From the IMG/VR virus record IMGVR_UViG_2663762857_000017: a DNA stretch of 6,132 nt, one strand, 5' to 3'. The translations under genes were made by a program, and so were the position numbers. The DNA is from a virus. Its lineage: Duplodnaviria; Heunggongvirae; Uroviricota; Caudoviricetes. Shown one piece after another: positions 1,343 through 1,352 of this stretch. The notes under the pieces are model-generated. The model was not told the DNA's origin. It worked only from the letters and a program-made list of their open reading frames with translations, and searched no databases. Numbering within the stretch: position 1 is the first letter of the stretch; every line of letters begins with the position of its first letter.

Positions 1343-1352
1343 GGGGGGGGGG
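1343..1352. repeat. Homopolymeric G10 tract
   Basis: Ten consecutive G (ccGGGGGGGGGGatc), 9 bp after the HNH stop codon. Seen directly in the sequence. Confidence 0.6.

What the first reader, a model, noticed from the sequence alone, without database searches (positions are those of the whole stretch)
1343..1352. G10 homopolymer next to the putative cos site
Runs of 9 or more G are hotspots for slipped-strand mispairing and for sequencing or assembly error. Here the run is intergenic, so a length change would not shift a reading frame but could alter cos spacing. Inference: it may be part of a G-rich cohesive end, since some HNH-dependent cos phages have GC-rich 3' overhangs.
Basis: partly seen in the sequence, partly recalled or inferred. 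Interest (0 to 1): 0.4.

Follow-up and report, generated by a model that had tools for sequence, protein, structure and literature searches.

The report
Conserved poly-G tract beside phage cos
The run of ten G's is real; it is not the sticky end itself but a length-variable, strongly conserved G tract about 34 bases before the DNA-cutting site of this HK97-type prophage packaging signal, and I found no paper that characterises it.

Summary
G10 is present at 1343-1352, nine bases after the HNH stop codon (0.04 such runs expected by chance). The window is the HNH-terS-terL-capsid module of a lambdoid Stx-type prophage.

The cohesive end is not the G run. It is placed by homology to phage Lys8385Vzw, whose termini were mapped by PhageTerm. 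Eight virome contigs also start exactly at the homologous CTCA. Together these put the 10-nt 3' overhang at about 1387-1396 (CGCGCCCCCT), 34 nt downstream of the run.

The run length is polymorphic. It is G6-G13 in 125 close relatives, and it varies even between loci with identical flanks.

The run itself is strongly conserved. All nine distant Enterobacterales relatives examined keep G7-G10 with a fixed 3' edge. So do 33 of 33 non-redundant diverse virome or isolate loci (G5-G9, 30-36 nt before the 10-mer, one at 41; 0.005 expected). HK97 and HK022 have G9 at 32 nt. SfI, phi644-2, Gordonia and Arthrobacter phages have G-rich tracts at 29-32 nt.

Best reading: a cosQ-like accessory site on the last-packaged side, read by TerL, HNH or the portal. 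This function is inferred and untested. I found no description of it in the literature I could search.

The parts
969..1334 (+). HNH endonuclease gene, the packaging-associated HNH placed immediately upstream of cos and terS.
   Evidence: ORF. Pfam PF01844 HNH, E 4.8e-7. Annotated as HNH endonuclease in about 1250 E. coli genomes.
1343..1352 (+). G10 tract. It is the leftmost conserved block of the cos region, and I propose it is a cosQ-like accessory site.
   Evidence: Sequence. Polymorphic G6-G13 in close relatives. Retained as G7-G10 in nine distant Enterobacterales relatives. Retained as G5-G9 in 33/33 diverse loci. G9 sits at the same offset in HK97 and HK022.
1353..1380 (+). 28-nt spacer with partly conserved islands: GTAAA at 1363-1367 and the palindrome CGATCG at 1371-1376.
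   Evidence: Alignment of 11 lineages. Repeat I1.
1381..1386 (+). GGACAC, an invariant block immediately before the cut. The equivalent position reads ...GAC| in HK97, SfI, phi644-2, Judy and Mimir87.
1387..1396 (+). Putative 10-nt 3' cohesive end CGCGCCCCCT. Position inferred by homology, with an uncertainty of about 2 nt.
   Evidence: The Lys8385Vzw record ends ...GGACACCGCCCCCCCT and restarts CTCACGCAGAG. PhageTerm classed it as a 3' cos phage with site CGCCCCCCCT. Variants among relatives are listed.
1397..1418 (+). Left-end block CTCACGCAGAGAAAAAATTCCC. It is the first DNA packaged and the candidate TerS site, by analogy with the HK97 site at +15..+29, which includes an A-tract.
   Evidence: Near-invariant. 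Eight virome contigs start exactly at its first base. HK97 TerS site: PMC11331095.
1430..1551 (.). Five copies of ATGTTAAC in both orientations. They look like multiplied copies of the ancestral terS start region AAACATGTTAACAG. Their role is unknown; they may be extra TerS or regulatory sites.
   Evidence: 5 copies found against 0.10 expected. Repeats. Comparison with distant relatives, where ATGTTAAC is the terS start codon.
1626..2189 (+). Small terminase gene (terS).
   Evidence: PF03592 Terminase_2, E 1.3e-8.
2186..3847 (+). Large terminase gene (terL), a homologue of HK97 gp2.
   Evidence: PF03354 and PF20441. 23% identity to HK97 gp2 over 489 aa, E 4e-11. PDB 6z6d, E 1.6e-9.

Best explanation
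The G10 run is the upstream boundary element of an HK97-type, HNH-dependent, 3'-overhang cos site.

Packaging starts at about 1397 and runs rightwards through terS and terL. It goes round the concatemer and returns through the HNH gene. The G tract therefore passes through the terminase-portal motor about 3 helical turns (34 bp) before the cut site at 1387-1396.

I propose that it is a cis-acting accessory site, analogous in position and logic to lambda cosQ. In this model the conserved part of the machine (TerL, with HNH and/or the portal, but not TerS) reads it, so that the translocating complex is registered or slowed and makes the staggered cut at the right place.

A minimum of about 5-7 G's is required. 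Extra G's are tolerated because the 3' edge of the tract is the fixed one and nothing functional lies upstream. Replication slippage can therefore vary the length freely.

Shown: the position of the tract, its polymorphism, its conservation and its fixed offset. Inferred: its role in cleavage or termination, and which protein reads it.
For: 1) The cut site is placed 34 nt downstream of the run. This rests on the Lys8385Vzw termini and on eight independent virome contigs that start at the homologous base.

2) In an alignment of 11 lineages (HNH 61-71% aa identity to the window in the distant ones), nothing upstream of the run is conserved. The run is the first invariant block, and its 3' edge stays 28-29 nt from GGACACCG.

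3) In a TerL-anchored, G-run-blind sample of IMG/VR, 33 of 33 non-redundant loci with the left-end motif have a G5-G9 run 30-36 nt before the putative 10-mer (one at 41). The background is 0.27 runs per kb, or 0.005 expected per 20-nt zone.

4) The same architecture appears in phages with determined or deposited ends: HK97 G9/32 nt, HK022 G9/32, SfI GGGGAGGGGCGGG/31, phi644-2 GGGGAGGGGGG/32, Gordonia Kita G7CG3/32, Arthrobacter Judy G6/29.

5) TerL is homologous between the window and HK97. TerS and HNH show no detectable pairwise similarity. The DNA downstream of the cut, which holds the TerS side, also differs. The shared upstream half therefore tracks TerL rather than TerS.

6) The HK97 TerS site is at +15..+29 and binds on fragments that lack the G tract (-20..+80). 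TerS acts as a roadblock to an incoming motor (PMC11331095, PMC9410871).
Against: No experiment addresses the tract in any of these phages. HK97 in vitro work used a -312..+472 fragment and did not dissect the upstream side.

A length range of G5-G13 is unusual for a base-specific protein site.

In Virgibacillus phage Mimir87 the tract is C6 on the same strand, that is, in the opposite orientation. That fits a structural signal better than a sequence read-out, or it may be a different element.

In SfI, phi644-2 and Kita the tract is interrupted.

The exact cut position in this family rests on one PhageTerm result plus contig starts. The overhang lengths for Kita and Judy were assumed.

The prophage in this window may be defective, because an IS66-family element lies at 6022.
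Confidence: 0.55

Rival explanations
1. The tract acts after cutting. As part of the last 45 bp packaged, which are also the first ejected, it would sit in the portal/neck channel and anchor or position the DNA end for head completion, tail joining or ejection. Alternatively it would protect the end.
For: The tract lies 34-44 bp from the right end of the virion DNA. In the HK97 termination assembly the DNA is cut at the TerL-portal interface, so the upstream 30-45 bp lies inside the portal (PMC10359639). The strand flip in Mimir87 and the tolerance of length changes both fit a structural, poly(dG).poly(dC)-type signal.
Against: There are no data on portal-DNA contacts at this sequence. The constant distance to the cut is explained equally well by a role in cleavage.
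Confidence: 0.17
2. The tract is a contingency (phase-variable) homopolymer. Slippage would tune packaging or termination efficiency, or HNH/terS expression, between phage lineages.
For: Length is G6-G13 among close relatives, and differs (7/8/10) among loci with identical 150+150-nt flanks. Finished phage genomes differ too: G7, G9, G10, G12.
Against: The run is outside any ORF. No promoter-like site spans it and no terminator is nearby. Its 3' edge is fixed and nothing upstream is conserved, so length does not change any spacing. Some of the variation may be sequencing error in draft assemblies.
Confidence: 0.1
3. The run is part of the cohesive end itself.
For: The overhangs of HNH-dependent cos phages are GC-rich. 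The complementary left-end overhang here would read AGGGGGCGCG.
Against: The Lys8385Vzw record ends 34 nt after its G7. Eight virome contigs start at the homologous CTCA, not at the G run. In HK97 and SfI the G tract is 31-32 nt inside the right end.
Confidence: 0.02
4. The run is a neutral, slippage-prone spacer or an assembly artefact with no function.
For: Homopolymers of 9 or more bases are error-prone. Length varies among relatives.
Against: A run is kept at a fixed offset in every lineage examined, across Enterobacterales, Burkholderia, environmental viromes and actinophages, while the flanking DNA is unalignable. Background expectation is 0.005 per site.
Confidence: 0.03
5. The run acts at the RNA or single-strand level, for example as a hairpin between the G run and the C-rich overhang, a terminator, or another regulatory RNA in the late transcript.
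For: G10 can pair with CGCGCCCCC (RNA MFE -23.8 kcal/mol). In SfI, GGGGCGGG is the exact complement of CCCGCCCC in the overhang.
Against: The DNA fold is no better than shuffles (z 0.29). G-run length does not track the C-run variant. Hafnia and one Logan locus lose the C run but keep G8. No terminator-like site and no Rfam hit.
Confidence: 0.04

Closest known systems
Bacteriophage lambda cosQ
   Same: A short G-rich cis element upstream of the nicking site, on the end of the chromosome that is packaged last. It is required for termination (bottom-strand nicking), not for TerS binding. Papers are cited in PMC11331095 and PMC6739421. The cosQ sequence GGGTCCT and its suppression by portal or slow-motor mutants are from my memory.
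   Different: Lambda makes 12-nt 5' overhangs and has no HNH partner. Its TerL and TerS are unrelated in sequence. cosQ is a fixed 7-mer closer to the nick, not a variable-length homopolymer. The function of the G tract is untested.
HK97 / HK022 cos region
   Same: Same order: HNH, G9 tract, ATCA..., 32 nt...GAC|CGCC... 10-nt 3' overhang, TerS site, terS, terL. TerL is homologous.
   Different: HNH and TerS are not detectably similar, and the sequence downstream of the cut is unrelated. Published HK97 work defines the TerS site (+15..+29) and the overhang. It does not mention the upstream G tract.
SfV / SfI / ST64B cos (10-nt overhang TGCCCGCCCC, ends sequenced for SfI)
   Same: HNH gene, then the G-rich block GGGGAGGGGCGGG followed by TCAAATCT, 31 nt...GGAC|TGCCCGCCCC.
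   Different: The tract is interrupted rather than homopolymeric. Part of it is complementary to the overhang.
Herpesvirus pac1 cleavage/packaging signal
   Same: G-rich tracts flank a T-rich core near the genome end, and cleavage occurs at a fixed distance from the motif. The terminase is of the same lineage as phage TerL (PMC13595911, PMC13386867).
   Different: It is a eukaryotic virus with a bipartite pac1/pac2 signal and a proposed G-quadruplex. A single G10 cannot form a canonical intramolecular G4. The resemblance is positional only. No homology was tested. The 30-35 bp distance and the termination role of pac1 are from my memory.
Phase-variable homopolymeric tracts (contingency loci of Neisseria, Haemophilus and Helicobacter)
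   Same: A poly-G run whose length varies between close relatives, presumably by slipped-strand mispairing.
   Different: There is no ORF or promoter spacing for the length to switch. Here a minimum length is conserved and the excess looks tolerated rather than used.

Membership tests
HK97-type (HNH-dependent, 3'-overhang) cos site | An HNH endonuclease gene immediately upstream of terS-terL, with cos between them. | tested here: met
   HNH 969-1334, terS 1626-2189, terL 2186-3847.
HK97-type (HNH-dependent, 3'-overhang) cos site | A large terminase homologous to HK97 gp2. | tested here: met
   23% identity over 489 aa, E 4e-11. Only PDB hit is 6z6d, HK97 TerL.
HK97-type (HNH-dependent, 3'-overhang) cos site | Virion DNA with about 10-nt 3' cohesive ends generated at this site. 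| tested here: inconclusive
   Not measurable for this genome. A relative about 93-97% identical (Lys8385Vzw) was typed by PhageTerm as 3' cos with CGCCCCCCCT at the homologous place. Eight virome contigs start at the homologous base.
HK97-type (HNH-dependent, 3'-overhang) cos site | Cleavage requires HNH, TerL and TerS. | not testable with these tools
   Needs genetics or biochemistry. Shown for HK97 in Kala 2014 and Fung 2022.
   The run ends 34 nt before the inferred overhang.
lambda cosQ-like termination site | Located upstream of the nick site on the last-packaged end, separate from the TerS sites. | tested here: met
   Position -35..-44 from the overhang start on the HNH side. The HK97 TerS site is downstream, at +15..+29.
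lambda cosQ-like termination site | Sequence similarity to cosQ, or use of lambda-type terminase. | tested here: not met
   The terminase is HK97-type. A G homopolymer is not the lambda 7-mer (cosQ sequence from memory).
lambda cosQ-like termination site | Mutation abolishes termination or second-strand nicking but not initiation. | not testable with these tools
   Requires phage genetics or in vitro packaging.
Phase-variable contingency homopolymer | Tract length is polymorphic among near-identical genomes. | tested here: met
   G6-G13 overall. Lengths 7/8/10 among loci with identical flanks. Sequencing error was not excluded.
Phase-variable contingency homopolymer | The tract lies in an ORF, or between promoter elements, so that its length switches expression. 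| tested here: not met
   Intergenic, 9 nt after the HNH stop. No promoter-like site spans it.
Intrinsic terminator or known RNA family | A GC stem followed by a T run, or a match to an Rfam model. | tested here: not met
   0 terminator-like sites. 0 Rfam hits at E<=1. Fold z-score 0.29.
Intramolecular G-quadruplex | Four G tracts of 3 or more G's separated by loops. | tested here: not met
   A single uninterrupted G10 has no further G3+ tracts nearby on the same strand. A run of G10 is shorter than the 15 nt needed for G3N1G3N1G3N1G3.

The most novel reading that the evidence does not exclude
A homopolymeric G.C tract about 30-35 bp inside the last-packaged end would be a general signal of HK97-type packaging machines, possibly structure-based. 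It would work as a 'measure-and-cut' or braking element that TerL or the portal senses about three helical turns before the nuclease reaches the cut. It would be the phage counterpart of lambda cosQ and possibly of the G-rich tracts of herpesvirus pac1. Its slippage-prone length could tune termination efficiency between lineages.
Probability: 0.25. Interest if true: 0.8.

Novelty: new variant of a known kind. Interest (0 to 1): 0.55.

Why it matters
HK97 is the structural model for cos packaging. Its TerS site, overhang and termination assembly are solved, but no upstream (cosQ-like) determinant has been defined. How the motor knows when to stop and where HNH and TerL make the second nick is still open.

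A conserved G tract at a fixed offset gives a concrete element to mutate in an existing in vitro system. It was present in every lineage examined: Stx prophages in about a quarter of complete E. coli genomes, HK97, SfV-type phages, Burkholderia phages, actinophages and environmental viromes.

Practical uses follow. The tract plus the CTCA motif predicts genome ends of this phage class from sequence alone. The tract is also a predictable trouble spot for assemblies, and an insertion site for ISEc20.

Tried and rejected
1) G run as the cohesive end. Rejected by the Lys8385Vzw termini and by contig starts.

2) Hairpin between the G run and the C run of the overhang. Rejected: DNA fold z 0.29, no covariation of run lengths, and the C run is lost in Hafnia and one Logan locus while the G run is kept.

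3) Terminator, promoter or known RNA. Nothing found.

4) TerS binding site. Unlikely: the HK97 TerS site is downstream of the cut, and TerS proteins are unrelated while the tract is shared.

5) A genome-contig scan with CGATCGNNNNGGACACCG.

6) Salmonella phage F1055 and Pseudomonas phage CF127a. Their records do not start at cos, or are partial, so they were uninformative. The ends of Xp10 and Staph R1988 are unverified; they have a G/C run at about 45 nt but were not counted.

7) Literature searches for a described G tract in HK97-type cos. None was found. Subscription-only papers such as Juhala 2000 could not be read.

8) ISEc20 targeting. The GGGG next to the IS end occurs at five independent sites. 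It is therefore part of the IS end or core, and is not proof that the IS seeks long G runs.

Full report
OBSERVATION. The window carries exactly ten G's at 1343-1352. This is the only homopolymer of 8 or more bases in 6132 bases, and an i.i.d. model expects 0.04 runs of 10 or more G or C. The run begins nine bases after the TAA stop (1332-1334) of a 121-aa HNH endonuclease gene (969-1334; Pfam HNH). It lies 273 nt before the GTG start of a small terminase gene (1626-2189). That gene is followed by a large terminase (2186-3847) and a prohead-protease/major-capsid fusion (3911-5848). I had no reads, so the exact count could be off by a base or so.

WHAT THE REGION IS. The 900-1700 stretch occurs at 89-99% identity in 1283 of 5426 complete E. 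coli genomes. The window as a whole matches lambdoid Stx-converting phages at 94-99%: 2851, BP-4795, 1717, YYZ-2008, JLK-2012 and many Stx1a/Stx2 prophages. It is therefore the start of the late morphogenesis operon of a common prophage type. From 6022 on, the window is the end of an IS66-family (ISCro1-like) element, so this particular copy may be defective.

WHERE THE COHESIVE END IS. Phage Lys8385Vzw (MT225100) belongs to this family. Its authors typed it with PhageTerm as a cos phage with 3' cohesive ends and reported the cos sequence CGCCCCCCCT at the end of the genome (PMC7946995). The deposited record ends ...CCCCGGGGGGGATCATCCGGCGAAAAAAACGATCGCTCCGGACACCGCCCCCCCT and restarts CTCACGCAGAGAAAAAATTCCCG. 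The window reads ...GGGGGGGGGGATCATCCGGCGTAAAAAACGATCGCTTTGGACACCGCGCCCCCT|CTCACGCAGAGAAAAAATTCCCG. The homologous 10-mer is therefore 1387-1396 (CGCGCCCCCT), and the left end of packaged DNA would begin at 1397.

Independent support came from a TerL-anchored fetch of 80 IMG/VR loci. Eight metagenomic viral contigs begin exactly at the homologous base: CTCATCGAGG, CTCACGCGGAC, CCCATTCGGAC, CGCATTTGGAC, CTCATTTGCGG, CGCATAGATT, CTCATTTACGG and CGCACGCAGAC. The G run is thus 34 nt upstream of the overhang, on the side of the genome that is packaged last. It is not part of the cohesive end. The position of the nicks is inferred by homology, with an uncertainty of about 2 nt.

THE RUN IS POLYMORPHIC. 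I scanned IMG/VR with ATCGGACTGT-N(8-30)-ATCATCCGGCG. Together with the phage records already fetched and the window itself, this gave 125 copies with run lengths of 6 (3 copies), 7 (41), 8 (51), 9 (18), 10 (8), 11 (2), 12 (1) and 13 (1). Loci with identical 150+150-nt flanks still differ, for example 7/8/10. Finished phage records carry G7, G9, G10 and G12. This fits slipped-strand variation, although sequencing error in draft assemblies cannot be separated from it.

THE RUN IS NEVERTHELESS CONSERVED.
- Salmonella phage FSL SP-016 and eight prophages were examined: Sodalis, Hafnia, Serratia, Klebsiella, Citrobacter, Kosakonia, Cronobacter and an unnamed Logan contig. Their HNH proteins are only 61-71% identical to the window's, yet all keep G7-G10.
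- In the alignment nothing upstream of the run aligns. The run is the first invariant block and its 3' edge stays 28-29 nt from the invariant GGACACCG. The spacer keeps only GTAAA(C) and mostly CGATCG. The block GGACACCGCGCCCCCTCTCACGCACAGAAAAAAT(T/C)CCC is nearly invariant.
- Because the fixed edge is the 3' one and nothing upstream is conserved, length changes do not alter any spacing within cos.
- In the G-run-blind sample, all 33 non-redundant loci that have the left-end motif and at least 60 nt upstream carry a G5-G9 run 30-36 nt (one at 41) before the putative 10-mer. The density of such runs elsewhere in the same loci is 0.27 per kb, which gives 0.005 expected per 20-nt zone.

THE SAME ARCHITECTURE IN OTHER HK97-TYPE PHAGES. 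In each line the tract is followed by the spacer length and then the terminal sequence.
- HK97 ends ...GCA-G9-ATCAAATC...AAATGAC|CGCCGCCAAA, with 32 nt between tract and terminal 10-mer.
- HK022 is the same.
- SfI, whose overhang TGCCCGCCCC was determined by sequencing the ends (PMC3636060), has GGGGAGGGGCGGG, 31 nt...GGAC|TGCCCGCCCC. SfV and ST64B are of this type.
- Burkholderia phi644-2 has GGGGAGGGGGG, 32 nt, ...GGGAC|CGCCCGCTTC.
- Burkholderia vB_E264 has G5, 33 nt, CGCACGTTCC, then CTCACGCGCAG.
- Gordonia phage Kita has GGGGGGGCGGG 42 nt from the record end.
- Arthrobacter phage Judy has G6 38 nt from the record end, and ends ...AAATGAC|CGCCGGAGA, much like HK97.
- Virgibacillus phage Mimir87, with an annotated 9-nt overhang, has C6 (the opposite strand) 35 nt before the overhang.
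The overhang lengths for Kita and Judy are my assumptions.

WHICH PROTEIN IS LIKELY TO READ IT. The window's TerL is a homologue of HK97 gp2 (23% identity over 489 aa, E 4e-11; PDB 6z6d). Its HNH and TerS show no pairwise similarity to gp74 and gp1. The DNA downstream of the cut also differs between the two families. In HK97 the TerS site is +15..+29, downstream of the cut, and is bound on fragments lacking the G tract. TerS is thought to act as a roadblock that stalls the incoming motor, after which TerL, stimulated by gp74, cuts. DNA density ends at the TerL-portal interface (PMC11331095, PMC9410871, PMC10359639). The shared upstream half (G tract, about 32 nt, GAC|CGCC) therefore correlates with TerL, and with HNH or portal, but not with TerS. 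During termination the tract passes the motor about three turns ahead of the cut site, and at the moment of cutting it would lie inside the portal channel (inference).

BEST EXPLANATION AND RIVALS. I conclude that the run is a cis-acting sub-site of an HK97-type cos. By position and logic it is the analogue of lambda cosQ. It needs a minimum of about 5-7 G's and tolerates more. This function is inferred from conservation and geometry and has not been shown. The rivals are these.
- A post-cleavage role of the terminal DNA in the portal or neck. This is plausible and is not separable from the best explanation here.
- A phase-variable tuner. The polymorphism is present, but there is no ORF, promoter or spacing to switch.
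- Part of the overhang. Contradicted by the termini evidence.
- A neutral spacer or artefact. Contradicted by the conservation.
- An RNA or ssDNA hairpin with the C-rich overhang. The fold is no better than shuffles (z 0.29), run lengths do not covary, and the C run is lost in two lineages that keep the G run.
- A terminator or known RNA. None found.

COMPARISON WITH WHAT IS KNOWN. The closest systems are lambda cosQ, the HK97 and SfV/SfI cos sites, and herpesvirus pac1. The last is a positional resemblance only: pac1 has G-rich tracts around a T-rich core, and cleavage occurs at a fixed distance from it (PMC13595911, PMC13386867). The cos site qualifies as HK97-type on gene order and TerL homology. 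The 3' overhang is supported only through a relative. The dependence on HNH is untestable here. I found no paper that mentions the upstream G tract. Subscription papers such as the original HK97/HK022 genome paper could not be read, so 'undescribed' is provisional.

VERDICT. It is wrong on the central guess, because the run is not the sticky end and its length does not change cos spacing. What is really there is a conserved, length-tolerant poly-G element at a fixed offset from the cut in HK97-type cos sites. I rate it a new variant of a known kind of element, of moderate interest (0.55), and directly testable in the HK97 in vitro system.

Noticed in passing
L001 (LC567818, PPompW prophage) 1546-3004, corresponding to window ~1348: An IS110-family element, ISEc20, sits exactly in the cos G tract. 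Its right junction reads ...AATAAAGTAAC|GGGGG ATCATCCGGCG. Its left junction abuts a different G7 (ctttcGGGGGGG|TGCCCC) next to the Q/tRNA region, so the lysis genes and HNH are missing. 24 of 5426 E. coli genomes carry this junction. At four other insertion sites the same IS end is also followed by GGGG(G)(G), so GGGG is the IS end or core. G runs may be its preferred target.
   Followed up: partly
window 1430-1551: There are five copies of ATGTTAAC in both orientations, against 0.10 expected. In distant relatives a single AAACATGTTAACAG carries the terS start codon about 50 nt after the cut. In the E. coli lineage about 190 nt with multiplied copies has been inserted, and terS now starts at GTG 1626. 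The copies may be TerS or regulatory sites, or remnants of duplication.
   Followed up: partly
window 6022-6132: The last 111 bases are the end of an IS66-family (ISCro1-like) element found in about 2100 E. coli genomes and on many plasmids. It interrupts the late operon right after the 43-aa ORF 5893-6024, so this prophage copy is probably defective.
   Followed up: partly
L282, L303, L314, L326, L332, L336, L338, L345 (IMG/VR virome contigs), first bases: Eight metagenomic viral contigs begin exactly at the C(T/G/C)CA motif homologous to window 1397. For this phage class, contig starts in viromes therefore mark the physical left end. G tract + ~34 nt + 10-mer + CTCA could serve as a sequence-only predictor of termini.
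   Followed up: partly
window 1387-1396 and homologous positions in 122 related loci: The putative overhang is itself variable among close relatives: CGCGCCCCCT (71), CGCCCCCCGT (29), CGCCCCCCCT (12), CGCGCCCCGT (4), plus six 9-mers with a shorter C run. Phages with different overhangs could not anneal to each other's ends. The 9-mers may be sequencing errors.
   Followed up: no
L276 (Virgibacillus phage Mimir87, MK560763) last 60 nt: In this low-GC Firmicute phage, the tract at the equivalent position (35 nt before the annotated 9-nt overhang) is C6 on the top strand instead of G. This hints that the signal may be the G.C homopolymer duplex rather than a strand-specific sequence.
   Followed up: no
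window 727-987 (-) and 969-1334 (+): The DUF3950/YlcI-YnfO-family ORF on the minus strand, as called from its GTG, overlaps the HNH start by 19 nt. The two are divergent genes with overlapping 5' ends. The annotated versions in relatives are shorter and may not overlap.
   Followed up: no
window 2186-5848: terL is followed directly by a 645-aa prohead-protease/major-capsid fusion, with no portal gene between them. This order differs from HK97, where it is terL, portal, protease, capsid.
   Followed up: no
L261, L264, L250, L251 and HK97/HK022 right ends, 20-70 nt upstream of the G tract: Several relatives and HK97 share further motifs upstream of the tract: TGAAATCATTTCA-like palindromes and GATATCAA. 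These are absent from the window, where the HNH stop is only 9 nt away. They may be optional accessory or host-factor sites.
   Followed up: no
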